Shown: positions 51 to 36,930 of the stretch, piece after piece
How positions within the stretch are numbered: the first letter of the stretch is position 1
Layout of the letters: each line of letters starts with the position of its first letter
Source: an uncultured Gammaproteobacteria bacterium
GTDB lineage: Bacteria > Patescibacteriota > Patescibacteriia > UBA9934
Direction of reading: 5' to 3'
NCBI GenBank assembly: GCA_964645815.1
Contig: CAZYCR010000003.1
Span: 1-36,930, forward strand
DNA: 36,930 nt
Made by a program: the position numbers and the translations under genes
The notes under the pieces: generated by a model
The model's database searches: none
Seen by the model: the letters and a program-made list of their open reading frames with translations, nothing else
Told to the model about the DNA's origin: nothing

Positions 51-61
51 TGTCCCGTCTT

Positions 62-823: not shown

Positions 824-824
824 T

Positions 825-16146: not shown

Positions 16147-16180
16147 GATAAAAGCAAAGGCCGACCCAGAGGGGTCGGCC
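16147..16180 (-). terminator. intrinsic terminator of GC-rich orphan B
   Basis: On the - strand: ggccgacccc-tctg-ggtcggcc stem, then tttgcttttatc. Confidence 0.7.
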
Positions 16181-16193
16181 CGTAGAACGAGAA

Positions 16194-16559: not shown

Positions 16560-16586
16560 GTTCCTCTCCTGGTTAATGGACAGGGG

Positions 16587-16615
16587 AAGGTAACATATTT
16601 TTGGCAATCTGTCAA
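16587..16615 (-). promoter_or_regulatory. promoter of orphan B (TTGACA-N17-TACCTT on the - strand)
   Basis: tgtcaa at 16610-16615 and aaggta at 16587-16592 on the + strand, separated by 17 nt. Confidence 0.45.
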
Positions 16616-16674
16616 TGCTAGCTTACCAGAAGTATTTTTTGCCTTTTTGACCCGACTAGGGCAAAATTAAACGT

Positions 16675-17013: not shown

Positions 17014-17040
17014 AAACCGCCCTCGGGCGGTTTTTGCTTT
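17012..17040 (+). terminator. intrinsic terminator after the PPase-like gene
   Basis: aaaaaccgcc-ctcg-ggcggttttt, then gctttt. Confidence 0.8.
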
Positions 17041-17077
17041 TCTCAGCCAATTATATAACCTCGTTAAGCTATGAAAT

Positions 17078-17106
17078 TTGACAACTTTTCCATAGATTGA
17101 TATTAT
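17078..17106 (+). promoter_or_regulatory. promoter of the type I R-M operon (TTGACA-N17-TATTAT)
   Basis: -35 at 17078-17083, 17-nt spacer, -10 at 17101-17106. The ATG at 17118 is 11 nt after the -10. The promoter is flanked and overlapped by CTATGAAA repeats. Confidence 0.55.
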
Positions 17107-17117
17107 CTCGATAACCT

Positions 17118-18818: not shown

Positions 18819-18822
18819 ATTT

Positions 18823-19536: not shown

Positions 19537-19539
19537 GTT

Positions 19540-20688: not shown

Positions 20689-20692
20689 GTAT

Positions 20693-21691: not shown

Positions 21692-24606
21692 AATTCAACG
21701 AACAAGTAACAATTGAAAACCACATCATCAAATTCCTAAAAAAGGAACTTGGGTTTGAGTTTGTGAAACCGGAGGAGATGAAAGGGTTGCGCGAGTACGA
21801 GACGGAATATCTTGTGACATCATATCTACGAGACGCGATAGCGAAGATAAATGGCATTTCCGATGAAACGATCCTCGATTCGATCATTCGCGAGATTAAA
21901 AAAGTCGATACGAACCAGGGTTTTTTGGAGTTGATCCGCGGCGGAGTTGATTTAGTTGACGGCAAGACGCAAAAAACGCACACCTATCAAGTGATTGACT
22001 TTCAGAATCCGGAAAACAATCATTTTGTTGTTACTAACCAGTTTTATTTTGAAGGAGATACAGAAAACATTCGTCCGGATGTTTTGGTATTTGTAAATGG
22101 TATTCCGGTTGTGGATATTGAAGCAAAGTCGGCGACGGCTGCGCTCTCTGTCGATTACACAAAAGGCATCGGTCAGATTAAGCGTTATGAACGTGTTGCA
22201 AAAAGGCTGTTTATTCCAAACTGTTTTAACATCGCAACCGATGGCGTTCAGACAGTTTATGGAGCAACATTTGCACCGGAGCAATATTTCTTAACTTGGA
22301 AGGATGAAGAACTCGATAAAAAGTATGGCGAAGGAGCGGTAGAAGTTTCACTGGAGAATCTGCTTAGACCAGAAAATCTATTGGACATCATTGCGAACTT
22401 TATTGTTTTTGAACAAACAAAAAATGGTCTGGTTAAAAAGGTTGCTTATTATCAACAAAAACGAGCCACGAATAAAATTGTTGAACGAGTTGTAAAACGA
22501 GATGGAAAACGCGGACTTATATGGCACACACAAGGATCCGGAAAGACGCTGACCATGTTTTTCACGGCATGGAAACTTCGTTTTCATCAAGAATTGGCTA
22601 GTCCAAAAGTGTTTATTTTGGTTGATCGTATTGATTTGGACGATCAGGTGTATGACGAGTTCACCAATCATGGTGGGAAAAACATTATTCGAGTTACTTC
22701 CCGCAAACATCTTGAAGAAGTAATCGGCTCGGATGAGCGTGGAATTTTTATTTCAACAATTCAAAAATTCTCCGAGTTGGGGGCTGGTATTAAAAACCTC
22801 AAAGAGAATATTATCGTTCTTTCTGACGAAGCTCATCGTGGAGATGAAGGTGTTGCAGGGATTAACTTGCGCGACTCTCTCGGCAATGCTTTCCTTTTTG
22901 GCTTTACCGGAACACCGATTGATAAGACGACTCTAAATACACACAGAAATTATGGTGAGGCTGGTGAGCGGTATTTGGACTATTATTCGATCGAACAAGC
23001 TATTAAGGACGGAACCACATTGCCCGTCACCTACGAAGCACGTCTTTCAAAGTTTTTCATTGATGAAGAGCGTGCTGACGAACAGTTCGATGAGTTGACA
23101 ACCGAATTGGACGACAAGCAAAAAGAAGAATTACTGAAACGGCACACGCGAAAATCTCAGCTTACAAACTTGGATGCGCGGGTTGATGCGATTGTTCATG
23201 ATATTGTTGAGCACTTTAAAGCCTATATAGAACCGAATGGATTCAAGGCGCAGGTTGTTTGTAACGGAAAGGAAGCGGTAGTGATGTACAAAAAACATTT
23301 CGATAAGTTACTCGGAAGCGAGGCGACGGCTGTTGTGTTTTCTTCCGGGGACCCTAACAGCACGCCAGAAGAACAGAAAAAGTACGAAACAGCAAAGAAG
23401 GAACGCGATGAAATTATTCGCAACTTTAAGAACCCAGCACATCCTTTGAAGTTTATTATCGTAACAGACATGCTTTTGACGGGCTTCGATGCCCCGATTG
23501 AGCAGGTTATGTATTTGGATAAGCCTCTGCGCGACCATACATTACTCCAGGCCATTGCTCGCACGAACCGAGTTTATCCCAATAAGGTAGCTGGAAAGAT
23601 TATCGACTACTATGGAATCACAAAGAATCTTTATGATGCGCTTGATTTTAGCGAAGATATCGTTGATTCGGCGATGGTAGATATCGATGTCATGAAGGAA
23701 CGATTTGTTGAAGTTTTGCACCAGAACATGGATTTATTCGGTAAAGTGAATATCGAAGATCCTTCCATGGAAAATCTGCGTCACAATATCAAGATTTTTA
23801 TTGACAACGAAGATAAGCAGCAATTCTTTAAGAAAAAGTACAACCAACTGAAATCGCTCTACGAATTTCTTGCTCCGGATCCATTCTTGAAAGAATATAT
23901 TCGTCACTTTGAATGGCTCACAAGCTTTTACATTGCATTTCAAAAGGAATTTTTCTCTACTCCAGATGCACACTTGCTTGCGGGTTACGGCGAGAAAGTT
24001 AAAGAGATTATCCAAGACAATGTTGATTATGCGGGGATTACAAAGACATTCCGTGAGCTTAGGATTGATGATGTGGCGGCTATGAATAAGCTGGACGAAA
24101 TGGACGATGAAGAAAAGGCTCTAAATCTTGAAAAAATGTTAAAGCAAGAAATTTCTGAGCACATCGACCTTAACCCTGCCTTCCAGACCTTTAGCGAGCG
24201 TCTTCAAAAAATCCGGGAGGATTTTGAACAGAAACAAATGGACTTAGCGGAGCGCATCAAACACTATCAGGAGTTAATGAAGGATATTCAAGATGCTCGT
24301 AGCATCGCGGAAGAAAAAGGATACACGCTCTCAGAATATGGGCTTTACATGGTCAGTAAGGAATATTTGCCAGATGTTAGTGAGGAATTAATGCATGAGT
24401 TCATTAAAGAAATGGCGCAAAAAATTAAGGACGTTCTTGATAAAGGTTGGAAGGAGTCATCGAAGTACGATTTCTTTATCAAGGAAATCAAGCGAACGTT
24501 CCAGGAGCTTATTCTGAAGGATTACCGCGGTAAAATTACTATCGACATTGGAGAATTCCACGGCTATGTGAACCGACTTGTCGACATGGTTATTAAATAC
24601 TTCTAG
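21688..24606 (+). CDS. hsdR: type I restriction enzyme endonuclease/translocase subunit HsdR
   Basis: N-terminal PD-(D/E)XK block DVLVFVNGIPVVDIEAK. SF2 helicase motifs HTQGSGKTLTM, LSDEAHRG, FGFTGTP, QAIARTNR. Long helical C-terminus. Confidence 0.92.
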   Translation: MKFNEQVTIENHIIKFLKKELGFEFVKPEEMKGLREYETEYLVTSYLRDAIAKINGISDETILDSIIREIKKVDTNQGFLELIRGGVDLVDGKTQKTHTYQVIDFQNPENNHFVVTNQFYFEGDTENIRPDVLVFVNGIPVVDIEAKSATAALSVDYTKGIGQIKRYERVAKRLFIPNCFNIATDGVQTVYGATFAPEQYFLTWKDEELDKKYGEGAVEVSLENLLRPENLLDIIANFIVFEQTKNGLVKKVAYYQQKRATNKIVERVVKRDGKRGLIWHTQGSGKTLTMFFTAWKLRFHQELASPKVFILVDRIDLDDQVYDEFTNHGGKNIIRVTSRKHLEEVIGSDERGIFISTIQKFSELGAGIKNLKENIIVLSDEAHRGDEGVAGINLRDSLGNAFLFGFTGTPIDKTTLNTHRNYGEAGERYLDYYSIEQAIKDGTTLPVTYEARLSKFFIDEERADEQFDELTTELDDKQKEELLKRHTRKSQLTNLDARVDAIVHDIVEHFKAYIEPNGFKAQVVCNGKEAVVMYKKHFDKLLGSEATAVVFSSGDPNSTPEEQKKYETAKKERDEIIRNFKNPAHPLKFIIVTDMLLTGFDAPIEQVMYLDKPLRDHTLLQAIARTNRVYPNKVAGKIIDYYGITKNLYDALDFSEDIVDSAMVDIDVMKERFVEVLHQNMDLFGKVNIEDPSMENLRHNIKIFIDNEDKQQFFKKKYNQLKSLYEFLAPDPFLKEYIRHFEWLTSFYIAFQKEFFSTPDAHLLAGYGEKVKEIIQDNVDYAGITKTFRELRIDDVAAMNKLDEMDDEEKALNLEKMLKQEISEHIDLNPAFQTFSERLQKIREDFEQKQMDLAERIKHYQELMKDIQDARSIAEEKGYTLSEYGLYMVSKEYLPDVSEELMHEFIKEMAQKIKDVLDKGWKESSKYDFFIKEIKRTFQELILKDYRGKITIDIGEFHGYVNRLVDMVIKYF

Positions 24607-24609
24607 CCT

Positions 24610-25170
24610 ATGAAAAAGGAGGTGCAAATTGAAAATAGTACGCTCCAATACTCGATAAAAAAGAGTAAGAGGGCGAAGCGAATGAGAATCGCAGTTTATT
24701 GCGATTGTTCGATTGTTGTTACATCTCCTCAATCGATTTCAGAAACCCAAATTCAAAAATTTATTCGACTGAAATCGGATTGGATTGCAAAGAAGATTGC
24801 ATTCTTCTCCTCTTTGCAGATACACCCTGATATCGCTATTCAGTCAGAACAACATTACTTACAACATAAAGAGAAGGCGTTGAAGACAATCTCTCAGAGA
24901 GTTCAGAAGCTGAGTGAAAAGTATCAATTTGAACCTAATCAAATTCGAGTAAAAATGTTAAAAACTAAATGGGGTAGCTGTTCTGGGAAGAAGAATCTCA
25001 ATTTCAATTACAAGTTGATTTTTCTTAATCAAGATTTGCAAGATTACGTTATCATCCATGAACTATGTCATTTAAAAGAGTTGAATCATACAAAGAAATT
25101 TTGGGCACACGTTGCTTCATTTATACCTGAATATAAGAAGATAAAAAATAGACTACAAATTTTTAACTAA
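24610..25170 (+). CDS. DUF45/COG1451 (YgjP-like) zinc-dependent hydrolase
   Basis: TKWGSCS and HELCHLKELNH (HExxH plus a downstream His). Starts 3 nt after the hsdR stop. Confidence 0.8.
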   Translation: MKKEVQIENSTLQYSIKKSKRAKRMRIAVYCDCSIVVTSPQSISETQIQKFIRLKSDWIAKKIAFFSSLQIHPDIAIQSEQHYLQHKEKALKTISQRVQKLSEKYQFEPNQIRVKMLKTKWGSCSGKKNLNFNYKLIFLNQDLQDYVIIHELCHLKELNHTKKFWAHVASFIPEYKKIKNRLQIFN

Positions 25171-25171
25171 T

Positions 25172-25918
25172 ATGCCTTTTTATAATCCACACCGAGGAGC
25201 ATCCTTCAACTACGGCGGGAAGCAATGGAAACTTAGCCGGGGGAAGATTGATCTCTTTCTCCGCTGCCCGCGGTGTTTTTATTTGGACAACAAACTCGGC
25301 ACCAAACGACCTACGTGCCCACCGTATAATATTAATACCGCCGTAGACTCGCTCCTCAAACAAGAATTTGATGGCTATCGGGCCCGGGGGATGAAACACC
25401 CTTTGCAGAAAAAATATAAAATCGACGCCATCCCGGCTAAGCATGAGCAAATCGATGATTGGCGCGAGAATTTTAAGGGTGTTCAGTATTTACACCAGCC
25501 AACCGGATTATTGGTTACCGGCGCTATTGATGATTTGTGGCAGAGTAAAAAAGGTGAGTATATTGTGGTCGATTATAAGGCCACGGCCAAGTCTGATCCT
25601 GTAACTGAGCTGAATGATGATTGGCACGAAGGTTACAAACGTCAAATGGAAATTTATCAATGGTTATTGCGTCAAAATGGTCTTAAGGTTTCCAACACCG
25701 GTTATTTTGTTTATTGCACCGGTCGGCCGGACGAAAAAGCTTTTGACGGTAAAGTGGAATTTGACGTGCATTTGATTGCTTACACCGGTGACGACTCATG
25801 GGTCGAAAAGACTCTAGCTCAGATTAAAAAGACCCTGAGTAGCAAAAAAATACCTAAAGCTGCCGCAGATTGTGAGTATTGTCAGTATCGAGCCGCAGCC
25901 GCTCGGCACGAAAAATAA
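25172..25918 (+). CDS. Cas4/RecB-like PD-(D/E)XK nuclease with four terminal cysteines
   Basis: CPRCFY near the N-terminus, GAIDDLW, VVDYKA, QMEIYQ, and C-terminal CEYCQY. Starts 1 nt after the DUF45 stop. Confidence 0.7.
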   Translation: MPFYNPHRGASFNYGGKQWKLSRGKIDLFLRCPRCFYLDNKLGTKRPTCPPYNINTAVDSLLKQEFDGYRARGMKHPLQKKYKIDAIPAKHEQIDDWRENFKGVQYLHQPTGLLVTGAIDDLWQSKKGEYIVVDYKATAKSDPVTELNDDWHEGYKRQMEIYQWLLRQNGLKVSNTGYFVYCTGRPDEKAFDGKVEFDVHLIAYTGDDSWVEKTLAQIKKTLSSKKIPKAAADCEYCQYRAAAARHEK

Positions 25919-25940
25919 AGTGTGCTATTCTAAAAACCAT

Positions 25941-26408: not shown

Positions 26409-26860
26409 TAAAAACAGACAATGCATTTCGGCACCGGATGCCTGGAGGCACTTCGTCTTTTAGATTCTCGTATCTGCAATCCTGAGCCTGACGAAGGATC
26501 TTCATGATTTACTTCTGGAGGCACTTCGTCCTCCCTCACGGTTGCAATATGAACAAAAGATCCTTCACTTCGTTCAGGATGGTACGTACTCTGTCGTGTT
26601 TACCATCCCGAGCGAAGCCGAGGGATCTTTTGAATTGATTCACGTCTGGGGTCTTCCAGCCCCAGGCCTCCAGACCCTGGGTTCAGTGATTCCTTGTAGA
26701 AATATCACTTCACCCGTCTCGGCGGTTCGAAGACAAACTATTGTCTTCTCACTTCGCCTCGACTCCTCGCTGAGTACGAGGAAAATATCATTCCACAGCC
26801 GGACTGCAGAAAACTCCCAAACTCCTGTATAATAAGGATACAAAATTCACTGCTTGTCGT
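26409..26860. other. non-coding, hairpin- and repeat-dense region (candidate structured RNA or long 5' UTR), strand undetermined
   Basis: Hairpins: a long imperfect one at 26558-26628, plus 26517-26534, 26646-26665, 26729-26748 and 26764-26782. A 16-nt direct repeat lies at 26442-26457 and 26515-26530. There are four exact CACTTCG heptamers. There is no convincing ORF. Confidence 0.5.
26558..26580 (-). repeat. dispersed 23-nt hairpin repeat, copy 2
   Basis: The reverse complement of agatccttcacttcgttcaggat equals 16086-16108 exactly. Confidence 0.9.
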
Positions 26861-28588
26861 GTGAGAAATATTGAGCGAACCTGGCTTAAAAAGTTTTTAC
26901 GTGGAGCCGTTTTTAGTGCGGTAATTTTTGCGTTGTGGCAAACGCCAACGTTTTTTGTAGAAGCTCAAACCGCTCTTGAGCGAACCGGTGCAGCGGCTAG
27001 TTTTCAAGAAGTTGAATTGGCAACAGTTATCGGTCGAATCATTGCTGTCTTCTTGGGAGTCTTGGGCGTTGTCTTTTTGGGCCTAGTCATCTATGCCGGC
27101 GTTTTGTTCATGACTGCTGCCGGTCGCGATGATCGAGTAGAAAAAGCTAAGAAAGTATTAACCAGCGCGGTCATCGGACTTATTATCACCATGAGCGCTT
27201 ATTCCATTACAGCTTTTGTAGTGCAAAGAATCACTGGCCAAGGTCTTTTTGGCACTAGCGGCGGCGGTGGCACTAGCGGCGGAGTTTCGATTGAACCTTT
27301 CTCCGGCTCTTTGGGCCGAGGAATCCGTGACCACTATCCGGCTCGCAACGCCACTAACGTTGCCCGCAACACCAAAATTTTCGTGACCTTCTCGGAGCAA
27401 ATGAATATTGAATCATTTATCGACGGTTATGACGTTTCTGGTTCACCGCTCGATCTTTCGGACGACACACCAGCTTCTGGTCTCAACGACCGTTTGATCA
27501 AAATTTACCCAACCGCTCAAGGCGAATCGGCCGCTTTAACTGCAACTGATGTCAGCGTGACTTTCACCGATGACTTGAGAACTTTTGTTTTCACTCCACC
27601 AATCCTGGGATCGGCTACGACCAATGTTCAGTACACTGTTGCACTAGATGATCGTCTGGAAAGCGCAACCGGTAATTCTATACTCAATGACGGTGGCTAT
27701 ATTTGGTCTTTCACTGTGGGAACTGTTTTGGATACTGAACCGCCAACTGTCACTCGAGTTACACCGCTCGCTGGCGGTACTTATGATCGTAACATCACAG
27801 TGCAGTTAACTTTTTCCGAAGCGCTTGATCCAACTTCGGCCAGCGGTCGATACAATCCGGCCAATGGCGAAAATTTTGAAAGTATTACTGTAGCCGGAAC
27901 TAGCAGCGGCGCAGTTTCGGGTGAATATTTAATTAGCAATGAATACAAAACAATTACTTTCCAGCCATCGGCAGCCTGCGGCATAAATTCTTGCGGCAAT
28001 ACTTTGTATTGTTTGAGCTCGGCCGACAGTATGACAGTCACTGCTTTTGCTGCCACCAATGATTTGTTCCCGTACAACGGAATTGTTGACGTTAATGGTA
28101 ATGCTTTGGACGGCGACGCCGACGGTCAGGCTGGCGGAAATTATAGTTGGGGCTTTACCACCACTGGCGACGTTCGTTTGAGCGGACCGGAAATTACTTT
28201 GATTACACCTGACATTGAGTCAAGCAACATCAATCTCGATCAGGATGTGATGATTACTTTTGATTCAGAATTAATGAGCTCCACTGTTAGCACGGAAAAT
28301 TTTGTACTGACCTCAAAACCGGAGCATGAGATGTGGTTCCGCACCAGCCAAGAATCAACGGCCGACAGTACTACAGTCACAGTCAAACATGGCGTTTTCT
28401 TGGAATCAACGGCCGACCAGACTTATTTGTACGGCATGAGCGTTGGGGAAGGTGTGCAAGATATTTATCAAAACTGTTTCCGACCGGCCAAAGGTCCGGG
28501 TAAAAATGGAGGTAGTTGTGGTACCAGTGCCAGTGCACCGTTTTGTTGCAATGGCGTGCCGCAATCAACCGAGTGCCAACTTTTTTAA
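26861..28588 (+). CDS. secreted/surface protein with N-terminal VirB2/TrbC-like pilin module, Gly-rich linker and Ig-like domains
   Basis: 575-aa ORF with a GTG start. It has a signal-like N-terminus. Two hydrophobic helices flank MTAAGRDDRVEKAKKVL. A GGGGTSGG linker follows, then beta-rich repeats of the SbsA/Big type and a Cys-rich C-terminus. Confidence 0.8.
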   Translation: MRNIERTWLKKFLRGAVFSAVIFALWQTPTFFVEAQTALERTGAAASFQEVELATVIGRIIAVFLGVLGVVFLGLVIYAGVLFMTAAGRDDRVEKAKKVLTSAVIGLIITMSAYSITAFVVQRITGQGLFGTSGGGGTSGGVSIEPFSGSLGRGIRDHYPARNATNVARNTKIFVTFSEQMNIESFIDGYDVSGSPLDLSDDTPASGLNDRLIKIYPTAQGESAALTATDVSVTFTDDLRTFVFTPPILGSATTNVQYTVALDDRLESATGNSILNDGGYIWSFTVGTVLDTEPPTVTRVTPLAGGTYDRNITVQLTFSEALDPTSASGRYNPANGENFESITVAGTSSGAVSGEYLISNEYKTITFQPSAACGINSCGNTLYCLSSADSMTVTAFAATNDLFPYNGIVDVNGNALDGDADGQAGGNYSWGFTTTGDVRLSGPEITLITPDIESSNINLDQDVMITFDSELMSSTVSTENFVLTSKPEHEMWFRTSQESTADSTTVTVKHGVFLESTADQTYLYGMSVGEGVQDIYQNCFRPAKGPGKNGGSCGTSASAPFCCNGVPQSTECQLF

Positions 28589-28591
28589 AAC

Positions 28592-31500
28592 ATGACTAAG
28601 AAAATTCTCACAATTTCCTTGCTTTTCTTGGCCACACTGACCGTGGGTCTCATTTTGATGCATACCCCAACCTTAGCTCAAGTCGATACCGGGTTGGAGA
28701 CTGTGGGCACTGAAGCTGGTTTGGCTGGTGACAGTCTGGGATTGATTATTGGACGGATTATTCAAGTGATTCTGGGTATTTTAGGTGTTGTTCTTTTGGG
28801 CTTCATGATTTACGGCGGCTATCTCTGGATGACCGCAGCCGGCAGTGACGAAAAAGTGGCTCGGGCCAAAAAAGTTTTAGTTAATGCCACCATTGGTTTG
28901 ATTATCGCTTTAGCTTCCTTTGCTATCACCACTTATGTTATTTCTGCAGTCGGCGGTAATGCCGGCGGCGGAGGTGGCACAGGAGGCGGCGGAGGAGGAG
29001 GTAGTGGTATTGGCTTGGGTCATGGCTCAGTGGCGCTTTTTACGGTCACAGGTTTTCAGCCGGACGGTGAAGTACCAATCAGAAACATTGCTTTACAAAT
29101 AACTTTTAGTAAAACTGTCGATGAGACTACGATAGATGGCGCAGTTCATGTCAGGCGAGCCGACAGTGGGGAAGAGGTCGCTGGAAGTTTGGAGGTTAAT
29201 TATAATCGGGTCACTTTCCGACCAAGTACAGCTTGTCCGGCACCGGACGAGGATCGTTTCTGCTTTGATGAAAACACTACTTATAACGTTTTGGTTGACT
29301 CTTCGATCGAAAGTCAGACAGGTTTGCAACTTAATTGCGCTTCCGGCTGTAGTTCCAGCTTTACCAGTGGCAGCATTGTTGATACGGATAATCCTTCTGT
29401 CGAATTAACTTACCCGCAAAGTGGTGCCAGGATCGCAGCCGGCGCAGTAAGTTTGGTTGAAGCTATGGCCGAGGATGACGCCGGGCTTTCCGGTGTTGAT
29501 TTTCTGAGTGAAGAACAAATCTTTGATTCAGTTTTGGTAACTTCGGAAGAAACCGGATCTCCACTTTCGGCGATAGTCGAAAGTTATTGGGAAACCTCAG
29601 GATTGCCGGAAGACAATTATTATACTTTGCGAGTGACAGCCTTCGACTTGGCCGGTAATACTGATGAAGATTCTTTGCGTGTTAAGATCAACCCAAGTAG
29701 TTGCTCTAATGGTAGGCTTGATGCTGACTTGGGAGAGACCGGCCTTGATTGTGGCGGAAGTTGCGGCGAATGTGACGGTGCTACTTGTGAAATAAATGAC
29801 GCATGCTCAAGCGGACTTTGCTTAACTGGAACTTGTACCACTCTGCCAACCATTTTATCGGTTACTCCGTCTAATGGCGCACCGGGCACCTATGTAACAA
29901 TTTCTGGTACAGATTTTGGCAGCAGTGGTGGCTATGTTGAGTTTACTGCTATCGGCGGCGGAACAGTGGCTGCAACTATTCCATCTTGCAGCAATGGTTG
30001 GAGTGCCGCTGAGGTCGTGGTGGAAGTGCCAAATGAAGCGATTGATGGTCCAATTTCCCTAACTACCAGAAACAATTTATTTGACAGTACTGATAATGAA
30101 TTTGGACCGATCATAAATAATTTTGATGTTAATACCACTTTGCGACCATCAATTTGTCGTTTGTCGCCAACTGCCGGAGTTGCCGGGTCAACACTTAATC
30201 TTTTTGGTAAAAACTTTGGCGGTAGCCAAGGAACTTCGGATATTAGATTTAATAATGATTTGGCAGCAACTTATCCAGCCTGGAGTGATGGTTCAGCGAG
30301 CGCTGTTGTGCCAAATCTAGCAGCAACAAATTACGGCGTGGCCGTGAACGTCGGCGGCGTGCTTTCCAATAGTTTGAATTTTAATCTGGGATCAACTGGT
30401 GAGGGCGGTACAGGTGGCACTGGCGGTACTGGTACCAGCGATCAGCCAATTATTAGTTATTTAAGTCCTGGTGACGGCGGTGTTGGTCAATATGTGACAA
30501 TTGTTGGTTCAGGTTTTGGCGATTTGGTCGGTTCGGTCTTCTTTGAAAATCAGTTGACCGGCGAACTGGCTCAGGGCGCCATTGATTTTCCGGCACTTTG
30601 TTTGGATGATTTTTGGAATAATCAAGAAATTACCGTAATTGTCCCAGTAAATTACACAAATGGTTCAGCTGTTGATTTGGGGGCATATGAAGTTTATGTG
30701 GCTCGCCAAGATGGGGCAGTTTCTCCAAGAGCCAATTTCACTGTAACCAGTGCCGAGCCTTTACCAGGCCTTTGTCGAATTGTTCCAAATCGGGCAGAGA
30801 CTGGAACCTCGGTCACTTTGATTGGTGATGGTTTTGGAAACAATCCAGGATCGATAACTTTTTATAATGAAGCCGGGGCTTTGAATATTGCTTCTTGGCG
30901 AGATGGAGAAGTGGAAGTCAGCGTGCCGGCAGCGGCCAGCTCTGGTCCGGTTCATCTCACTTCTGCAGCCGGTGGAAGATCTAATGAGGTTAATTTTGAG
31001 GTAGGCGCCGCAATAGTTCCTGGTGAAGAAGTAACTGTTGGTGCGGCAGCTTATGCCTGGAGTTTTTCAACCGGTATTTTGCCACGTACACCAGAACTGG
31101 CGATCGCCTGTACTGACACCTTGATCAGCGGTGTACCAAATAGCCTGTTCACTGATGCAGTTTGCGTTAATGCTAATGTTTATGGCGAGTTTAGTGTGCT
31201 CATGCAGAGCGCGGCCTTGGCTTATGGAGAAGCTGTTGTGGTTGAGGAATGTTTAAATGATCGTTGTTCCAATACAACGCCTGTTCCGGGTTCGGCACAA
31301 ATCAGCAGCAGTACCGGAGCGACAACTTTCCGCTGGCAGCCAAGCTCCAGTTACAACGGAGGTCTTTTCAAGACTTCAACAAAATATCAAGTTCGGATTA
31401 CCACTGACGCTACTTCTGTCGCCGGAGTGCCTCTAGCTCAAGAAGTAGTTTGGGATTTCACCACCAGTGAAAGCAGTGACAATTGTACAGTTGAAAAAGT

Positions 31501-34500
31501 ACGTGTTAGCCCAATTAAGGAAACTTTAAATATTCAAGGTGAGACTACTGAATTTGCCGCAGTTGCCAGCACCAATGATTGTCAGGTGCTCGATGCTGAT
31601 GCTTACGCTTGGGATTGGAGTATTGACCCATCGGTTGCATCCATCAACGACGGCACTTGCGAAAATACATCATCGGACGCTTGTGCAACGGCAGCGGCTT
31701 TAGCCGAAGGAGAGACGCCGGTTAGAGCAACCGAGCGTTCTAGTCAAATTTTTGGCGAAGGACTGCTAATTATCGATTATACTGATCCTTATATTATCAA
31801 CCAGGCACCTAATTGTGGTGAAGCCTGCGTTAATGCTGAAGTTGAAGCCAACTTTAATGTACCAATGGATATTGCCTCGGTTGAACGTGCGGGAGCGGCA
31901 ACACTTTATCGTTGTCAAAACGAACTTTGTCTTTCTTTCCCGGAAATGGTTTCCAATTCGGCCCAGTGTGTTTATGGGGAAGGCAGTGTTTGTTTGGGTC
32001 TTAAATTCAGCAACTTACCGACTCTCAAGACTGGAAATTATTATCGAGTCGTGATTTCTGGTGACGTTAAATCAGTTTCCGGTGTGCCACTCACCAGAAC
32101 CAATTATGGCGATGATTATTCTTGGACTTTTAGAGTTCGCGATTCTGCTGAAGCTTGTTCAATTTCACGGATTGATCTCTTACCAAGCGACGTTACTTTG
32201 AAAAATATTGGTGATCGGCAGATCTTTGCGGTGGCTGCCTACGGCGAAGCTGATTCATGCTCAGTCGCCGGTCAAAAATTGAGCAGCAGTAATTACAACT
32301 GGAACTGGGAAGACCCAATTATCGATCGCGCTGGCGTGGCTGAGTGGCTTAAAGTTAATGGCGTCTTGCTTGATTCTTCGATCAGTTCCGGAGTTTCCGG
32401 CTGTACCAGTTCCTGTTTGCCAACCGGCAGTCAACCTTATGGTGGAGTTTGTGGTAATGGAGTTTTGGATGTTGGCGAAGATTGTGACGACAGCAATATT
32501 ACTGACGGCGACGGTTGTTCATCAATTTGTTTGGCCGAAGGCCATTTGCCAGGTTCAATTTGTGGCGACGGCGTGATTGCTAATATCTCCGGTGCCGGAG
32601 AAGAGTGCGACGACGGTAATACAGACGACGGTGATGGTTGTTCGGCTCAGTGTACCAGAGAAGGCAGTGCTTCAGTTGGAGCAACTTGTGGCAATAACGA
32701 TGTGGCTAGAAATGAATTTGGCGCCGGTGAGGATTGCGACGACGGTAATCGCAGTTCAGGCGATGGTTGTTCCTCGGTTTGTCTTAATGAGGGTACACCA
32801 AAGATCGTCAGCATCTTGGCGACTTGTGGCAATAATGTTATTGAACCTCCGTTTGAAAGCTGTGACGACGGTAACTTAGCCAACAACGATGGTTGTTCCT
32901 CTGTTTGCGTTCGTGAAGGTTTAATCGCCGGAGCAACCTGCGGTAACGGTACAGTCGAGAGAAACAGCTTTACCAGTGCTGGTGAAGATTGTGATGGTGG
33001 TGAAGGTTGCGGCCGCGATTGTCGCTGGTTGGGATCCTCGTTTAATTATTCAGAACCATCGGTTTGTGCCGACGGTATTGCCGGAATCGGTGAGTACGAT
33101 CAATGTGAAATTGGAGCTGCCGGAGACGGTCGGCCAGACGGCAGCCAAGTGGCCATTATCAGTGAAGGAGCAGGAGAGTTTGTTGATCCAGATCTTTCCA
33201 AAGCCGAGGCTACTATTAGAGTCTCAACTCCATCCTCATCCTTGAGCGGCCGAGCAACTTTGGCTTTGTCTTGCGTTGCTGAAACTGATGCAGACTGTGA
33301 AGACGGCTATGGTCCGGCTGATAACCGCTGTTGCCTAGCTCGACCAAATCCTGATCTATTCCCGGCTGGAAACGATGTTTGTCGCAATGCCGCTATTTAT
33401 GCCATTTTTGATCAGAGAATGGATCTAAATTCATTCAATGGTAATGCCTATGTTCGACTTGTTGGCGGAAGTTGCCCAAGTTCACATGAAGTTGCTTTAG
33501 GGGACAACGCTTCTTGGTTGGCCAGATTGTGGCAAAAGATTTCAAACTTTGTGGCACCAGAACTTTTAGCTCAATCTGCTGGAGATTGTTTATTGCCACT
33601 CTCAGGATTTTCTCAATTTGAACGTCCAGACGGTACTTTCCAAGTTATCTTTAATTACAGTGTTGCCTTGGAGACCAACAGTGAATATGAAATCGTGCTC
33701 GAGGGCGACCAATTAGGCGATATCGCTGATAATGGTCGGGCTTTGGCAGACGGTATTTTGTCGGCTTCTGGCGTGGCCATGGAAGGCTCGCGAGTTCATC
33801 ATTTTATTACTTCTGATCGTTTGTGTGACTTGTCTAGAGTTGAAGTTTTGGATTCGTTCTCAGAACATCCGGGAGTCTTTAGAACTGCCAATGAACCGCA
33901 TGATTTATTTGCTACAGCTCTTACTAATCACAACGGCAGTTACGAAGAATTACAACCAATTCCTGGCGTATACGAATGGGAGTGGGCTGATTGGCAAGAA
34001 GATACCAATGGACGTTTTGTTACTTTGAGTAATCAAAATAATAATACTGTTACAGCGAGTTCCACCGAAGATTCTGGTCGTTCTCATGTCACGGCTACAG
34101 CTCGTTTAACTACTGACACAATCAATAATTCAATTGACCCAACTTCAGGTTTTGGTCAATCAGTCTCTGGAGACATCAGCTTTACAGCCGTGATTTGTAA
34201 TAATCCATGGCCAGCTTATGGTACTGATTTTCCTTACGAAAATAATGATTTCAATTTCTCTCTATATTATTGTCGCGACAGCGGCGGCCGGGAAACAGAT
34301 GATGACTTGCCGGCTCTTGCTGCACCTGTTGAGTCACCGGCTTCAGGTTCGGGCATTGTTTTGGGCGAATATTTCTTCCGCGTGTTACCAAACTTACCTG
34401 ATCTTGTTCCAACTAACCGTTCCAATGATGCCATTGGTTTGCGTATAGCGGAAAATCCAAATTACTTAAGCCCAACTGATTGGTATTTTGAGAACGGCTT

Positions 34501-36930
34501 TGTTGGCAGTCCACGTGAATTAACAGTTGATGGCTTTGAGGCGATTGAGGTTGGCAGAAGTATCTACGTTGCTGCACCAAATATTGCCGGCAGCCAGATT
34601 TATCCAAATATTTACGTTCTTTCTTATAATGAACTAGCCAGCTCGAGTACTGTTGAAATTTATAATCAGCTGGTTGAAAATTTCAGTCTACTGATTAATA
34701 AAACCGTAAATCTTTGTCGTCGAGCCGATGGCGGTTATACTCATACGGTTTGTTCCTCAGATTGGGACTGTCTTGGTGATGCCGAAGCTGTTGAATGTGG
34801 CGCTGATGGTTTGAAACTTCGTCGTGACATGAAGCGTTTAACTGATCTAACGCATCTGTCCAAGGTCATTTCCACTTACGGCAGCGACAATCGACGATGT
34901 TCCTTAACGACATCACAAGTTTGTACCACGGCTCAGGATTGTCCGGGTACGGAAACTTGTTTGCCAAGCACACCGCAATTATCATCTGGTACGTTCCTGC
35001 GATCCGGTTCAGCCAGCACCTGGAACTCTTGGAATAATGAATTGGCAGGAACTTTGGGCGAAAGCATCCCGGCTGATCCACTCAATGGTTATGCCGGCAG
35101 TTGTGGAGATGGTACAGACTATCCTGGTTTTACTGCTGCAACTTGTACCAATGAAACCAGTGGTCAATATGTTTGCCCGCTTGGTAGTTACACTTATCAT
35201 TACTTTGCTAAAGGTCAGTTTGGTTATGAACTAAACGTTGATTTGGAATACTCTGGTCAAGGTGAATACTGGGCTTTTCCAATCGATAATGACTTGGGCG
35301 ACAGTAAAGTCCTTCGAGTTAACAATCACGCTGCCGGGGAAGACGGATTTTCCGGTGCGCCATTCTGCGATGGAACCATTTACGGCGCATCCAATATTTG
35401 TGGCGACGGTGTAGTCGGTACAGATGAAGCTTGTGAACTGGGTCAGAGAAGCAATGCTCAGCCGACAACTTGTGCCGATGGTTATCCGGGTACAATTTCT
35501 CAGGTTTGCGCTACTGATTGTTCCGGTTTTGTCGATGCTCCAATCGACCAATGTGTGCCAATTTCTTGTGGTAATGGAGTGAGAGAAATCGGCGAAGAAT
35601 GCGATGACGGTTCATTTAATGGTCGTTACGGTTATTGTGGCAATAATTGTTCTTACACCAATGCACTTTATTGTGGCGATGGTTCTCTGGCTGCTGGAGA
35701 AATTTGTGATTGCGGCTCAACAGTTGCTTCTGGTTTAACCTACGGCGGTTTTTCATGCAATAAAGTTAACGGATCTTATAGTACCAACCCGGCTGCCAGC
35801 TGTTCTTGGGATTGCCGCGGGCCGGCTTCTTATTGTGGCGACGGCGTAGTTGATAGTGGCGAGCAGTGCGACGGCACAGTTAACGAGTATGCCGGCAAAC
35901 TATGTGCTGGCTCGATTAGTTTGCGCTTTGGACAGACTTGTGAAAACGATGCGCAATGTCCAACCTTTGACGGAGGAACCTCGGCTTGTGGTTCAAATTT
36001 GGCTAATTATAGCTGGGCTAATGAATGTCCAACGACAACTGTTTGTATTGCCGGTGATCCTCTTCGCATTGGCTACCCATGTCAAACTGACATTGATTGT
36101 GGCGCGACTGGTGTTTGCTCACAAAATCCGGTAGAAACCACGCGTACCATGACTTGTTTGGACGACGGAGCTGCTGGTGAACAATGCAAATGGCAGTCAA
36201 ACACCTGGCGTTCAATTGATTGTAAAGCAGCGACTTCTTGCGGTAATGGTCAATTAGAACCTGGAGAAGATTGTGATGACGGCAACAATGACACCAATGA
36301 CAGTTGTACCAATGAGTGTCGCTTAAATGTTTGTGGCGATGGTTATCTCTATCTTGGTATTGAAGACTGTGATTCTGGTGATGAGAACGGACAACTCTGT
36401 TCTGCTGCCTACAACTCAAGCTGCAGTTATTGTTCATCCAGCTGTAAACTACTGACAACTTCTGGAACTTTCTGTGGTGATAATATTATCAACGGTGGGG
36501 AATATTGCGATGGCAGTTCAGTGCCACTTGGTTTTGGAATCTGTAATGGCGGTGACAATAATGGCGAGATTTGTTCTGCTGACGGGGATTGCCCAGGCTT
36601 TAGTTGTTCATTCCCGGTTTGTGCTAATGACTGTCGAACTTCGTGTCCAACGACTTATAAGTTTGCCAGTATTGAAATGAGGACTAATCAAACAGGTGCG
36701 CCACGAACAACTGCGGTTGAGCTGGAGTCAGCATTATTGGAAAGCCAGAATTTTAATATTGATACAGCAACTCTTTATCTGCCACAATGCAATGCAGCCA
36801 CTGCTTTACGTGGCGATGTAATTTTTGAAAATATTGATTTTTCCAACGCTTACGTAGTTTTTGTCACAGATCTTTCGAGTTCCATGAGTACAATTGTAGG
36901 TAGTGAACAGAGCGGCAACCAGATCACTCT
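28592..36930 (+). CDS. giant surface protein (partial, >2779 aa): pilin-like head, Ig-like domains, 4 IPT/TIG repeats, two arrays of Cys-rich CGxG..CDDGN..DGCS repeats, vWA domain starting at the window edge
   Basis: Hand translation from the ATG at 28592 meets no stop up to base 36930 (2779 codons plus 2 nt). All + strand track ORFs after 28588 lie in another frame (coordinate mod 3 = 0), whereas this ORF is in mod 3 = 2. That fits an open frame that went unreported because it has no stop in the window. Confidence 0.9.
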   Translation, partial: MTKKILTISLLFLATLTVGLILMHTPTLAQVDTGLETVGTEAGLAGDSLGLIIGRIIQVILGILGVVLLGFMIYGGYLWMTAAGSDEKVARAKKVLVNATIGLIIALASFAITTYVISAVGGNAGGGGGTGGGGGGGSGIGLGHGSVALFTVTGFQPDGEVPIRNIALQITFSKTVDETTIDGAVHVRRADSGEEVAGSLEVNYNRVTFRPSTACPAPDEDRFCFDENTTYNVLVDSSIESQTGLQLNCASGCSSSFTSGSIVDTDNPSVELTYPQSGARIAAGAVSLVEAMAEDDAGLSGVDFLSEEQIFDSVLVTSEETGSPLSAIVESYWETSGLPEDNYYTLRVTAFDLAGNTDEDSLRVKINPSSCSNGRLDADLGETGLDCGGSCGECDGATCEINDACSSGLCLTGTCTTLPTILSVTPSNGAPGTYVTISGTDFGSSGGYVEFTAIGGGTVAATIPSCSNGWSAAEVVVEVPNEAIDGPISLTTRNNLFDSTDNEFGPIINNFDVNTTLRPSICRLSPTAGVAGSTLNLFGKNFGGSQGTSDIRFNNDLAATYPAWSDGSASAVVPNLAATNYGVAVNVGGVLSNSLNFNLGSTGEGGTGGTGGTGTSDQPIISYLSPGDGGVGQYVTIVGSGFGDLVGSVFFENQLTGELAQGAIDFPALCLDDFWNNQEITVIVPVNYTNGSAVDLGAYEVYVARQDGAVSPRANFTVTSAEPLPGLCRIVPNRAETGTSVTLIGDGFGNNPGSITFYNEAGALNIASWRDGEVEVSVPAAASSGPVHLTSAAGGRSNEVNFEVGAAIVPGEEVTVGAAAYAWSFSTGILPRTPELAIACTDTLISGVPNSLFTDAVCVNANVYGEFSVLMQSAALAYGEAVVVEECLNDRCSNTTPVPGSAQISSSTGATTFRWQPSSSYNGGLFKTSTKYQVRITTDATSVAGVPLAQEVVWDFTTSESSDNCTVEKVRVSPIKETLNIQGETTEFAAVASTNDCQVLDADAYAWDWSIDPSVASINDGTCENTSSDACATAAALAEGETPVRATERSSQIFGEGLLIIDYTDPYIINQAPNCGEACVNAEVEANFNVPMDIASVERAGAATLYRCQNELCLSFPEMVSNSAQCVYGEGSVCLGLKFSNLPTLKTGNYYRVVISGDVKSVSGVPLTRTNYGDDYSWTFRVRDSAEACSISRIDLLPSDVTLKNIGDRQIFAVAAYGEADSCSVAGQKLSSSNYNWNWEDPIIDRAGVAEWLKVNGVLLDSSISSGVSGCTSSCLPTGSQPYGGVCGNGVLDVGEDCDDSNITDGDGCSSICLAEGHLPGSICGDGVIANISGAGEECDDGNTDDGDGCSAQCTREGSASVGATCGNNDVARNEFGAGEDCDDGNRSSGDGCSSVCLNEGTPKIVSILATCGNNVIEPPFESCDDGNLANNDGCSSVCVREGLIAGATCGNGTVERNSFTSAGEDCDGGEGCGRDCRWLGSSFNYSEPSVCADGIAGIGEYDQCEIGAAGDGRPDGSQVAIISEGAGEFVDPDLSKAEATIRVSTPSSSLSGRATLALSCVAETDADCEDGYGPADNRCCLARPNPDLFPAGNDVCRNAAIYAIFDQRMDLNSFNGNAYVRLVGGSCPSSHEVALGDNASWLARLWQKISNFVAPELLAQSAGDCLLPLSGFSQFERPDGTFQVIFNYSVALETNSEYEIVLEGDQLGDIADNGRALADGILSASGVAMEGSRVHHFITSDRLCDLSRVEVLDSFSEHPGVFRTANEPHDLFATALTNHNGSYEELQPIPGVYEWEWADWQEDTNGRFVTLSNQNNNTVTASSTEDSGRSHVTATARLTTDTINNSIDPTSGFGQSVSGDISFTAVICNNPWPAYGTDFPYENNDFNFSLYYCRDSGGRETDDDLPALAAPVESPASGSGIVLGEYFFRVLPNLPDLVPTNRSNDAIGLRIAENPNYLSPTDWYFENGFVGSPRELTVDGFEAIEVGRSIYVAAPNIAGSQIYPNIYVLSYNELASSSTVEIYNQLVENFSLLINKTVNLCRRADGGYTHTVCSSDWDCLGDAEAVECGADGLKLRRDMKRLTDLTHLSKVISTYGSDNRRCSLTTSQVCTTAQDCPGTETCLPSTPQLSSGTFLRSGSASTWNSWNNELAGTLGESIPADPLNGYAGSCGDGTDYPGFTAATCTNETSGQYVCPLGSYTYHYFAKGQFGYELNVDLEYSGQGEYWAFPIDNDLGDSKVLRVNNHAAGEDGFSGAPFCDGTIYGASNICGDGVVGTDEACELGQRSNAQPTTCADGYPGTISQVCATDCSGFVDAPIDQCVPISCGNGVREIGEECDDGSFNGRYGYCGNNCSYTNALYCGDGSLAAGEICDCGSTVASGLTYGGFSCNKVNGSYSTNPAASCSWDCRGPASYCGDGVVDSGEQCDGTVNEYAGKLCAGSISLRFGQTCENDAQCPTFDGGTSACGSNLANYSWANECPTTTVCIAGDPLRIGYPCQTDIDCGATGVCSQNPVETTRTMTCLDDGAAGEQCKWQSNTWRSIDCKAATSCGNGQLEPGEDCDDGNNDTNDSCTNECRLNVCGDGYLYLGIEDCDSGDENGQLCSAAYNSSCSYCSSSCKLLTTSGTFCGDNIINGGEYCDGSSVPLGFGICNGGDNNGEICSADGDCPGFSCSFPVCANDCRTSCPTTYKFASIEMRTNQTGAPRTTAVELESALLESQNFNIDTATLYLPQCNAATALRGDVIFENIDFSNAYVVFVTDLSSSMSTIVGSEQSGNQIT
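29843..31006 (+). repeat. four tandem IPT/TIG-like domains inside the giant ORF
   Basis: Recurrent openings: ILSVTPSNGAPGTYVTISGTDFG, ICRLSPTAGVAGSTLNLFGKNFG, IISYLSPGDGGVGQYVTIVGSGFG, LCRIVPNRAETGTSVTLIGDGFG. Confidence 0.7.
32450..33110 (+). repeat. array 1 of six Cys-rich repeats (CGNG..GE.CDDGN...DGCS..C)
   Basis: Repeat-initial TGT/TGC codons at 32450, 32561, 32687, 32825, 32939 and 33065, giving periods of 37-46 codons. Example: CGNGVLDVGEDCDDSNITDGDGCSSICLAEG. Confidence 0.85.
35399..36650 (+). repeat. array 2 of more divergent Cys-rich repeats
   Basis: CGDGVVGTDEACE, CGNGVREIGEECDDGSFNGRYGYCGNNC, CGDGSLAAGEICDCG, CGDGVVDSGEQCDG, CGNGQLEPGEDCDDGNNDTNDSCTNEC, CGDGYLYLGIEDCDSG, CGDNIINGGEYCDG. 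Confidence 0.8.

What the first reader, a model, noticed from the sequence alone, without database searches (positions are those of the whole stretch)
28592..36930. Giant multidomain ORF invisible in the supplied ORF track
From the ATG at 28592 the frame stays open for 2779 codons to the last base of the window. The track shows only short ORFs from other frames across these 8.3 kb, so the region would look empty.

Architecture read from my translation:
- Pilin-like head and Gly linker.
- Ig-like domains (FTVTGFQPDGEVPIRNIALQITFSKTVDETTIDGAV...; DTDNPSVELTYPQSG...).
- A Cys knot (CSNGRLDADLGETGLDCGGSCGECDGATCEINDACSSGLCLTGTC).
- Four IPT/TIG repeats.
- More Ig-like modules.
- Six Cys-rich repeats.
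- About 700 aa of unassigned sequence.
- A second Cys-rich array.
- The start of a vWA domain.

It starts one codon after the TAA of the 575-aa paralog. It is probably the dominant surface or host-contact protein of this locus.
Basis: seen in the sequence. Interest (0 to 1): 0.7.

Follow-up and report, generated by a model that had tools for sequence, protein, structure and literature searches.

The report
Giant pilin-anchored surface protein, truncated
The 8.3-kb open frame is a real gene, cut off by the window end, for a roughly 3,100-residue cell-surface protein of an ultrasmall (Patescibacteria/CPR) bacterium; it belongs to a large, already sequenced but uncharacterised family that probably mediates attachment.

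Summary
From ATG 28592 the frame is open for 2779 codons to the last base of the window. It was missing from the ORF track only because ORFs that run off an end are not listed.

It is a genuine gene. It aligns in one collinear piece (71.5% identity, 20 gap positions) with a 3128-aa GenBank protein from a Patescibacteria MAG, so about 350 residues lie beyond the window. There are more than 120 full-length homologues of 3000-3700 aa.

- Signal peptide, VirB2-type T4SS-pilin hairpin and Gly linker.
- Big_5 and Big_7 Ig-like domains and a small Cys-rich module.
- Four TIG domains, then more Ig-like modules.
- Five Myxococcus-type Cys-rich acidic repeats.
- A region without Pfam matches.
- A second Cys-rich array and the first strand plus DxSxS motif of a vWA domain.

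New here:
- AlphaFold2 resolves the unassigned region into Ig-like domains plus a confidently folded 400-aa module. That module has no significant PDB match but occurs in about 1,200 protein clusters.
- The gene pair (575-aa paralogue plus giant) sits in a strictly conserved chromosomal neighbourhood: YqeY, the pair, TSP3-repeat membrane proteins, YbeY, DgkA, FtsA, FtsZ.
- No T4SS machinery lies nearby.

Best reading: a membrane-anchored, disulphide-rich fibrillar adhesin. It is a new member of a known kind, of moderate interest.

The parts
28592..36930 (+). Giant ORF, 2779 codons, 3' end cut by the window. About 350 more codons are expected (vWA domain plus a C-terminal domain ending ...CAP in homologues).
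26861..28588 (+). 575-aa paralogue: T4SS_pilin head, Gly linker, three Big_5 stretches and a Cys-rich tail. Same frame as the giant ORF, separated by TAA-AAC. This pairing is conserved in every related locus long enough to show it.
28592..28681 (+). Predicted Sec signal peptide (aa 1-30, MTKK plus a hydrophobic core, then ...TLAQ|V). The AQ is conserved in the family consensus.
   Evidence: hydropathy and consensus; the cleavage site is inferred
28727..28957 (+). VirB2/TrbC-type T4SS_pilin domain (PF18895, aa 46-116). Two hydrophobic helices (aa ~45-82 and ~94-122) flank a basic loop, TAAGSDEKVARAKKVLVN.
28958..29035 (+). Gly-rich linker (aa ~123-148).
29084..29581 (+). Big_5 Ig-like domain (aa 165-258) and Big_7 Ig-like domain (aa 268-330).
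29702..29836 (+). Conserved 8-Cys module (aa 371-415). No Pfam match. The cysteines are nearly invariant in the family.
29849..31000 (+). Four IPT/TIG domains: aa 420-496, 519-597, 621-688 (weak) and 729-803.
31151..32446 (+). Second Ig-like block: Big_5 at aa 854-958 and 1063-1181, alternating with two beta-rich modules of ~100 aa that have no Pfam match.
32450..33022 (+). First array of five Myxococcus-type cysteine-rich acidic repeats (TIGR02232 / DUF4215), aa 1287-1477.
33269..34183 (+). Part of the 'unassigned' region that AlphaFold2 models as beta-sandwich domains. Their Foldseek matches are to tandem Ig-like domains (aa ~1560-1864).
   Evidence: weak Big_5 hit
34184..35416 (+). Family-specific alpha/beta module (aa 1865-2275). 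AF2 pLDDT 84.6, pTM 0.87. No significant PDB match. 33 invariant residues. Present in ~1,200 representative clusters.
35420..36691 (+). Second Cys-rich region (aa ~2277-2700) with six ExCD-core repeats, including a disintegrin-like CGDGSLAAGEICDCG.
36839..36930 (+). Start of the vWA domain: hydrophobic strand YVVFVT followed by the MIDAS motif D-L-S-S-S (aa 2760-2764, nt 36869-36883). The rest lies beyond the window.

Best explanation
The ORF encodes the first ~89% of a ~3,100-aa cell-surface protein of a Patescibacteria (Uhrbacteria-like) bacterium.

Proposed mechanism (topology inferred from sequence features; function inferred from domain content):
1. The protein is exported by Sec and its signal peptide is removed.
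2. The VirB2-like two-helix hairpin stays in the cytoplasmic membrane with its basic loop inside. This puts the Gly-rich linker and everything after it outside the cell.
3. The ectodomain is a long string of about 25 small modules: Ig-like, TIG, disulphide-rich acidic repeats and a family-specific 400-aa module. Together they form a stalk or fibril.
4. A metal-dependent (MIDAS) vWA domain near the distal C-terminal end acts as the ligand-binding head.

It probably works together with the co-transcribed 575-aa paralogue and the downstream single-pass membrane proteins, which carry thrombospondin-type-3 repeat (TSP3_bac) matches. The function would be attachment to a host cell or a surface. Here the VirB2-like domain serves as a membrane anchor and not as a polymerising pilus subunit.
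For: Real, conserved gene:
- 124 homologues, most of them 3000-3700 aa with the same Pfam set.
- Collinear 71.5% identity to P0001.

Anchor and topology:
- PF18895 scores 34.6 bits against a gathering threshold of 26.6.
- Hydropathy shows a signal peptide plus exactly two hydrophobic segments and none further, including in full-length P0001.
- The loop between the helices is Lys/Arg-rich.
- P0001 ends ...LEHCAP with no LPXTG or C-terminal TM, so the only anchor is N-terminal.

Extracellular nature:
- 128 Cys, none in the first 200 residues.
- Most cysteines are invariant or nearly so across 61 sequences.
- TIGR02232 scores 132 bits, TIG 74.9 bits, Big_5 68 bits.

Adhesive head:
- DxSxS follows a hydrophobic strand at aa 2754-2764.
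- Homologues carry PF00092/PF13519.
- The family profile hits the vWA domains of pilus-tip adhesins SpaC, GBS104 (PDB 3txa/3tvy/3tw0, deposited as 'cell wall surface anchor family protein'), RrgA (2ww8, same deposited name) and Mfa5, and of collagen VI, at E = 1e-8 to 4e-4. The names GBS104 and RrgA are from my own knowledge of these entries.

Operon partners:
- The 575-aa paralogue and the downstream membrane proteins with TSP3_bac matches are conserved in every locus that extends far enough.

No T4SS genes:
- None in 28 kb upstream in the window.
- None within 10 kb either side in four related genomes.

Precedent:
- Giant membrane proteins in CPR have been inferred to mediate host attachment (PMC8080830).
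- Adhesins are essential for epibiotic growth of a Saccharibacterium (PMC10633639).
Against: - No experiment or expression data bear on this protein.
- The ligand, and even whether this lineage is epibiotic, are unknown.
- The vWA domain itself lies outside the window. In the closest homologue it scores just under Pfam's threshold (22.9 against 23.8 bits).
- The 400-aa central module has no structural or functional analogue, so a non-adhesive activity cannot be excluded.
- Strict conservation next to ybeY-dgkA-ftsA-ftsZ suits a core envelope component at least as well as a host-specific adhesin.
- Extracellular disulphide formation needs an oxidative folding system that I did not look for.
Confidence: 0.6

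Rival explanations
1. It is a specialised subunit of a T4SS-type (VirB2) pilus. The pilin head would be extracted from the membrane by a VirB4-type machine encoded elsewhere. It would then be incorporated at the tip, or at low stoichiometry, and display the 3,000-aa ectodomain as a pilus-borne adhesin. The 575-aa paralogue would be a second such subunit.
For: - PF18895 match above threshold, and an NF045849 'pilin-like conjugal transfer protein' match just under its cut-off (38.9 against 40 bits).
- Two adjacent pilin-headed genes resemble the VirB2 arrays of 2-11 genes reported in CPR. Such arrays are essential in Southlakia epibionticum.
- vWA adhesins sit at pilus tips in Gram-positive bacteria.
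Against: - No VirB4, VirB6, VirD4 or any other T4SS gene within 10 kb in the related genomes whose neighbours carry Pfam calls, nor in 28 kb upstream here.
- The neighbourhood is housekeeping (YqeY, YbeY, DgkA, FtsA, FtsZ) in all loci long enough.
- The T4SS survey of Patescibacteria does not mention Uhrbacteria anywhere in its main text.
- By inference, a C-terminal extension about 30 times the size of the pilin would clash with helical VirB2 packing except at a tip.
Confidence: 0.15
2. It is a core structural envelope component, such as an S-layer-like or wall-spanning scaffold. Such a component would be needed for cell shape or division, not for binding another organism.
For: - Vertical, single-locus conservation next to ftsA/ftsZ in all 19 comparable loci, down to ~30% identity.
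- Conservation is fairly uniform along the whole length (33-56% median per segment). There is no hypervariable tip.
- Weak Foldseek similarity to the S-layer protein SbsC.
- The Big_5 family is typical of S-layer-associated Ig domains. This is from my own knowledge and was not tested here.
Against: - No lattice-forming or wall-binding domain (SLH, LysM and the like) was found.
- The vWA/MIDAS head and TIG/Ig stalk are the hallmark of adhesins.
- Gene adjacency to ftsAZ may be mere synteny.
Confidence: 0.2
3. It is an artefact: a chimeric or collapsed-repeat assembly, or a non-coding stretch that is open by chance.
For: None beyond the fact that the gene is repetitive at the protein level and is truncated by the window end.
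Against: - A collinear 2779-aa alignment to an independent assembly with 20 gap positions.
- A 10.2-kb blastn HSP to the syntenic locus.
- No tandem or long direct DNA repeats.
- More than 1,000 related clusters carry the same central module at the same relative position.
Confidence: 0.01

Closest known systems
Uncharacterised Patescibacteria giant proteins annotated 'Ig-like / IPT/TIG domain-containing protein' or 'cysteine-rich repeat protein' (e.g. P0001 from GCA_043822465.1; Candidatus Uhrbacteria P0008, P0020)
   Same: - Orthologues with the same length class (3000-3700 aa) and the same domain order.
- The same upstream 575-630-aa paralogue and the same chromosomal neighbourhood.
- 30-72% identity over 95-100% of the query.
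   Different: Nothing essential. The window copy is a new sequence (72% to the nearest) and is truncated. The window carries a ~9.9-kb insertion with a type I R-M system upstream that L001 lacks.
VirB2/TrbC-type T4SS pilins of Patescibacteria (PF18895; pilin arrays of Saccharibacteria)
   Same: N-terminal signal peptide plus a two-helix hairpin with a basic loop. HMM match above threshold. Tandem paralogous genes.
   Different: - The pilin part is under 4% of the protein.
- No T4SS genes nearby.
- The locus is housekeeping, not a T4SS cluster.
vWA-tipped fibrillar adhesins of Gram-positive bacteria (RrgA, SpaC, GBS104) and giant Ig-repeat adhesins (e.g. SiiE, the Mobiluncus 7651-aa adhesin)
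   Same: A stalk of Ig-like/TIG modules presents a MIDAS-type vWA domain distally. The family profile hits the vWA domains of these adhesins.
   Different: - Anchored by an N-terminal membrane hairpin, not by C-terminal LPXTG/sortase or by T1SS retention.
- No RTX or isopeptide-domain matches.
- Very Cys-rich (4.6%), with Myxococcus-type acidic repeats.
Giant membrane proteins of other CPR bacteria (Vampirococcus lugosii, 1392-4163 aa)
   Same: Very large, membrane-localised, adhesion-type domains, inferred to mediate host recognition (PMC8080830).
   Different: Different lineage and domain sets (WD40, PKD, saposin, integrin). No homology was shown here.

Membership tests
T4SS pilin (VirB2/TrbC-like, Pfam PF18895) | HMM match above the curated gathering score | tested here: met
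   34.6 bits against 26.6, aa 46-116 covering profile positions 2-71 of 71. NCBIfam NF045849 scores 38.9 against 40, just below its cut-off.
T4SS pilin (VirB2/TrbC-like, Pfam PF18895) | Signal peptide followed by two hydrophobic helices joined by a short basic loop | tested here: met
   Hydropathy segments at 3-29, 45-82 and 94-122. The loop is TAAGSDEKVARAKKVLVN.
T4SS pilin (VirB2/TrbC-like, Pfam PF18895) | Small protein (about 70-120 aa mature) that polymerises into a conjugative-type pilus | tested here: not met
   The protein has at least 2779 aa (about 3,100 in full). Polymerisation itself cannot be tested with these tools.
T4SS pilin (VirB2/TrbC-like, Pfam PF18895) | Encoded with T4SS machinery (VirB4, VirB6, VirB3, ...) | tested here: not met
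   No T4SS family among the called genes within 10 kb either side in L001-L006, nor in the 28 kb upstream in the window. The rest of the genome was not examined.
von Willebrand factor A (vWA) domain adhesins | vWA fold with a MIDAS DxSxS motif | tested here: inconclusive
   - Only the first strand and D-L-S-S-S (aa 2760-2764) lie inside the window.
- Many homologues carry PF00092/PF13519.
- The P0001 C-terminus scores 22.9 against 23.8 bits.
- The family profile hits PDB vWA domains at 1e-8.
Sortase-anchored pilus-tip adhesins (RrgA/SpaC type) | C-terminal LPXTG sorting signal and incorporation by sortase | tested here: not met
   Full-length homologues end ...CAP, with no LPXTG and no C-terminal hydrophobic segment.
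Myxococcus cysteine-rich acidic repeat (TIGR02232 / PF13948 DUF4215) | Repeat HMM above threshold, with multiple copies | tested here: met
   TIGR02232 scores 132.4 bits against 20.8 with 5 stretches. PF13948 scores 37.6 against 27. The regex finds 5 + 2 canonical units and 11 ExCD cores.
IPT/TIG domain (PF01833) | HMM match above threshold | tested here: met
   74.9 bits against 20.9. Three stretches are significant, and the fourth scores 15.7 bits (E = 0.015) alone.
RTX / T1SS giant adhesins (LapA, SiiE type) | C-terminal RTX repeats with a T1SS signal, and no Sec signal peptide | tested here: not met
   No RTX family hit in the window protein or in the P0001 C-terminus. An N-terminal Sec-type signal is present.
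Type IV pilus pilin / pseudopilin globular domain (my own lead for aa ~2072-2260) | Long alpha-1C helix packed on an antiparallel sheet, recognisable by fold search | tested here: not met
   The AF2 model has a 28-residue helix followed by strands. No pilin appears among the top 50 Foldseek PDB hits, and there was no Pfam hit.

The most novel reading that the evidence does not exclude
The VirB2-like head may be more than an anchor. The 575-aa and ~3,100-aa pilin-headed proteins, with the TSP3-repeat membrane proteins, would then form a previously undescribed surface organelle of Uhrbacteria-like Patescibacteria. This could be a fibre, or a polar attachment structure, built from giant VirB2-fusion subunits. 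Its genes are fixed next to the division genes ftsA/ftsZ. Its ligand-binding specificity would reside in the conserved 400-aa module, which has no counterpart among solved structures.
Probability: 0.12. Interest if true: 0.7.

Novelty: new member of a known kind. Interest (0 to 1): 0.35.

Why it matters
Patescibacteria make up a large share of uncultivated bacterial diversity. They are thought to live attached to other cells, yet the molecules that mediate contact are mostly unknown outside Saccharibacteria.

This gene is one member of a very large family (about 1,200 clusters at 50% identity) that is vertically conserved and unnamed. It combines a T4SS-pilin-type membrane hairpin with an adhesin-like ectodomain, and it contains a confidently folded module without a structural match. 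That makes the family a sensible candidate for attachment studies and for structural work.

As an individual finding it is ordinary. Close homologues are already deposited, and the 'invisibility' is a tool artefact.

Tried and rejected
1. Type IV pilin idea. The helix KLRRDMKRLTDLTHLSKVISTYG and the downstream P.DPLN / YHY / LEY motifs (aa ~2072-2260) looked to me like a type IV pilin or pseudopilin globular domain. A dedicated AF2 model (pLDDT 84.6) searched with Foldseek gave no pilin hit. The best PDB matches were PsbP/Mog1/DcrB/LpqN-like folds at E >= 4e-3. Rejected.
2. Whole central region. Foldseek on aa 1545-2300 returned only generic tandem Ig-like hits with TM below 0.2.
3. BFVD search of the module. 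It gave only phage 'lipoproteins' at E ~1e-4 and TM 0.2-0.4, which is not informative.
4. Looking up the window's own contig through the 575-aa protein. It is not on record, so the true 3' end could not be read directly and is inferred from P0001.
5. Read-through or a single interrupted gene. The 575-aa ORF and the giant ORF share a frame across TAA-AAC-ATG. This was rejected because the second ORF has its own signal peptide and pilin head, and the two are separate genes in the loci with gene calls.
6. Toxin (Rhs-like) reading. The distant hits P0117-P0120 are RHS proteins, but they cover only 8-14% of the query. TIG is the only Pfam family listed for all four that the giant ORF also carries; Big_5 is also listed for P0118.
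7. RNA and signal scans. tRNA and Rfam scans found nothing. Promoter and terminator scans were at background level.
8. Literature. I found no paper describing this family. One search failed on syntax.
9. Genome-collection scan. It therefore cannot be used for taxonomic counts.
Full report
**Observation**

Translating window 28592-36930 on the + strand gives 2779 codons without a stop, up to the last base. The upstream 575-aa ORF (26861-28588) ends with TAA. A single AAC codon follows, then the ATG at 28592. Both genes are in the same frame.

The ORF-listing tool states that ORFs running off an end are not listed. In this interval it shows only three short off-frame ORFs. That explains why the region looked empty, and the cause is technical, not biological.

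**Is it real?**

Yes.
- A protein search returned 124 homologues. Most are full-length at 3000-3700 aa and carry the same set of Pfam domains. Sources label them 'Patescibacteria group bacterium' or 'Candidatus Uhrbacteria bacterium'.
- The nearest, P0001 (3128 aa, GCA_043822465.1), aligns in one collinear HSP: 1-2779 against 1-2775, 71.5% identity, 20 gap positions.
- At the DNA level, window 26791-36909 aligns to the syntenic locus L001 as a single 10.2-kb HSP at 69% identity.
- There are no tandem repeats, and no direct repeat longer than 52 nt or above 87% identity. Repeat collapse or chimerism is therefore not a concern.
- By comparison with P0001, about 350 residues lie beyond the window. 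These are the vWA domain and a C-terminal domain ending ...HCAP.

**Architecture**

| Region (aa) | Feature |
|---|---|
| 1-30 | Signal-peptide-like segment |
| 46-116 | PF18895 T4SS_pilin, 34.6 bits against 26.6 |
| ~45-82, ~94-122 | The only two further hydrophobic segments, either side of a Lys/Arg-rich loop |
| ~123-148 | Gly-rich linker |
| 165-258 | Big_5 |
| 268-330 | Big_7 |
| 371-415 | Conserved 8-Cys module, no family match |
| 420-496, 519-597, 621-688, 729-803 | Four TIG domains (the third is weak on its own) |
| 854-958, 1063-1181 | Big_5, alternating with two unassigned beta-modules |
| 1287-1477 | Five TIGR02232/DUF4215 Cys-rich acidic repeats, 132 bits |
| ~1500-2275 | Stretch without Pfam matches |
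| ~2277-2700 | Second Cys-rich region with six ExCD cores |
| 2754-2764 | Strand YVVFVT followed by the MIDAS motif DLSSS |

Homologues carry PF00092/PF13519 at the position of the MIDAS motif. The family profile hits PDB vWA domains at E = 1e-8 to 4e-4. These include collagen VI, SpaC and Mfa5. They also include entries deposited as 'cell wall surface anchor family protein', which I recognise as GBS104 (3txa) and RrgA (2ww8).

The protein has 128 cysteines, none in the first 200 residues. Most are invariant or nearly so across 61 sequences.

- There are five canonical repeats in the first array, not six.
- 'Cys knot' is only a label.
- The 'pilin-like head' is of the VirB2/TrbC type.

**The unassigned region**

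An AlphaFold2 model of aa 1545-2300, built with 24 homologues, reached pLDDT 80.5 and pTM 0.73. Its first ~320 residues are beta-sandwich domains. These dominate the Foldseek results with generic tandem Ig-like hits such as LdtMt2 domains A/B, nectin and TCRs.

A second model of aa 1865-2275 alone reached pLDDT 84.6 and pTM 0.87. It has no PDB match at E <= 1e-3. The best matches are PsbP/Mog1/DcrB/LpqN-like folds at E >= 4e-3. In BFVD it matches only weakly to phage lipoproteins. My own suspicion that aa 2072-2260 is a type IV pilin-like domain was not borne out.

This module carries 33 invariant residues, many of them Trp, Tyr, Asp, Arg or Asn. An exhaustive phmmer scan of 1.84 billion representatives found it in 1,212 clusters (1,094 at E <= 1e-10). 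Nearly all are proteins of 2000-4000 aa with the module at the same relative position. It is the hallmark of a large, unnamed family.

**Context**

The 575-aa upstream protein shares 35% identity with the giant over the signal peptide, pilin head, linker and first Big_5 domain. It then continues with further Big_5 stretches.

Four related genomes were fetched through exact protein look-ups. Fourteen more loci came from a genome scan. The gene order is constant in every locus long enough to show it, down to ~30% identity:

SPase I - HisRS - ... - YqeY - [575-630-aa paralogue] - [giant] - two or three small single-pass membrane proteins carrying thrombospondin-type-3 repeat (TSP3_bac) matches - YbeY - DgkA - FtsA - FtsZ

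No T4SS gene appears among the annotated neighbours, nor in the 28 kb upstream here. Housekeeping neighbours are 84-88% identical to L001, whereas the paralogue is 76% and the giant 71.5%. This is the usual faster drift of surface proteins. Conservation along the giant is fairly even, at 33-56% median per segment.

**Mechanism**

The sequence features and conserved context above are shown directly. The rest is inferred.
- Sec export and cleavage after LAQ.
- Retention of the VirB2-like hairpin in the membrane with the basic loop inside, which places the linker and ectodomain outside.
- A disulphide-stabilised multi-module stalk, with a MIDAS vWA domain near the distal end as the binding head.
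- Cooperation with the shorter paralogue and the TSP3-repeat membrane proteins.

This is how vWA-tipped fibrillar adhesins work. However, the protein is not a member of the sortase-anchored or T1SS/RTX adhesin families, because neither LPXTG nor RTX is present.

Literature support is indirect:
- Giant membrane proteins in the CPR bacterium Vampirococcus are inferred to mediate host attachment (PMC8080830).
- Adhesins and a VirB2-type pilin array are essential for epibiotic growth of Southlakia (PMC10633639; PMC12857230).
- VirB2-like proteins and arrays are widespread in CPR (10.1101/2025.01.22.634366).

I found no paper on this particular family.

**Rivals**

1. A pilus-borne subunit assembled by a T4SS encoded elsewhere. 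This is possible but lacks local support, since no T4SS genes are nearby.
2. A core envelope or S-layer-like scaffold. The strict, vertical conservation next to ftsA/ftsZ and the even conservation along the protein favour it. The vWA/TIG/Ig content and the lack of wall-binding or lattice domains argue against it.
3. An assembly artefact. This is refuted.

**Verdict**

The gene is a new, truncated member of an already sequenced but uncharacterised family of giant, pilin-hairpin-anchored surface proteins of Patescibacteria. Interest is moderate to low for the finding as such. The features worth following are the family-specific 400-aa module with no structural match and the invariant linkage to the division cluster.

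Noticed in passing
window 16076-25939: A ~9.9-kb block is absent from the otherwise collinear locus L001 and has lower G+C (38-41% against 43-47%). It holds type I R-M genes: hsdM 17118-18818, a 237-aa unknown, hsdS 19540-20688, DUF3644 20681-21691 and hsdR 21688-24606. It also holds a YgjP-like metallopeptidase (24610-25170) and a PD-(D/E)XK/Cas4-like nuclease (25172-25918). This looks like an inserted defence island. L001 carries a different insert between HisRS and the S21-like gene, with a Cas1-like gene.
   Followed up: partly
window 28586-28594: The 575-aa gene and the giant gene are in the same reading frame, joined by TAA-AAC-ATG within a T/A-rich run (TTTTTTAAAACATG). There is no obvious Shine-Dalgarno sequence, which suggests translational coupling. 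In L006 the two genes overlap by 4 nt.
   Followed up: partly
L001 19389-21889 (downstream of the orthologous giant gene; beyond the window end): Three conserved small proteins (275, 231 and 317 aa). The second and third have a hydrophobic segment followed by D-x-D-x-D-G thrombospondin-type-3-like repeats. The first has a hydrophobic segment, a Cys-rich helical region and one such repeat. They co-occur with the giant gene in nearly all loci.
   Followed up: partly
window 16675-17013: A 112-aa ORF matches only positions 31-90 of the 153-position inorganic pyrophosphatase profile. It is probably a gene fragment at the edge of the inserted block.
   Followed up: no
window 50-1682 and the whole window: parA and parB are at the start of the window, and GC skew is positive in every 2-kb bin. 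The locus may lie on one replichore not far from the origin. A published survey notes that CPR T4SS genes often sit near dnaA.
   Followed up: no
window 3690-4994 (+): A 434-aa ORF between relA/spoT and topA has no Pfam match at E <= 1e-3. It also has no counterpart in any of the fetched loci.
   Followed up: no
L007, L008, L012, L013, L018-L020: Several genome records that carry this typically Patescibacteria locus are titled 'uncultured Gammaproteobacteria bacterium' (TPA_asm MAGs). Given the conserved CPR-type synteny, these titles look like mislabels.
   Followed up: no
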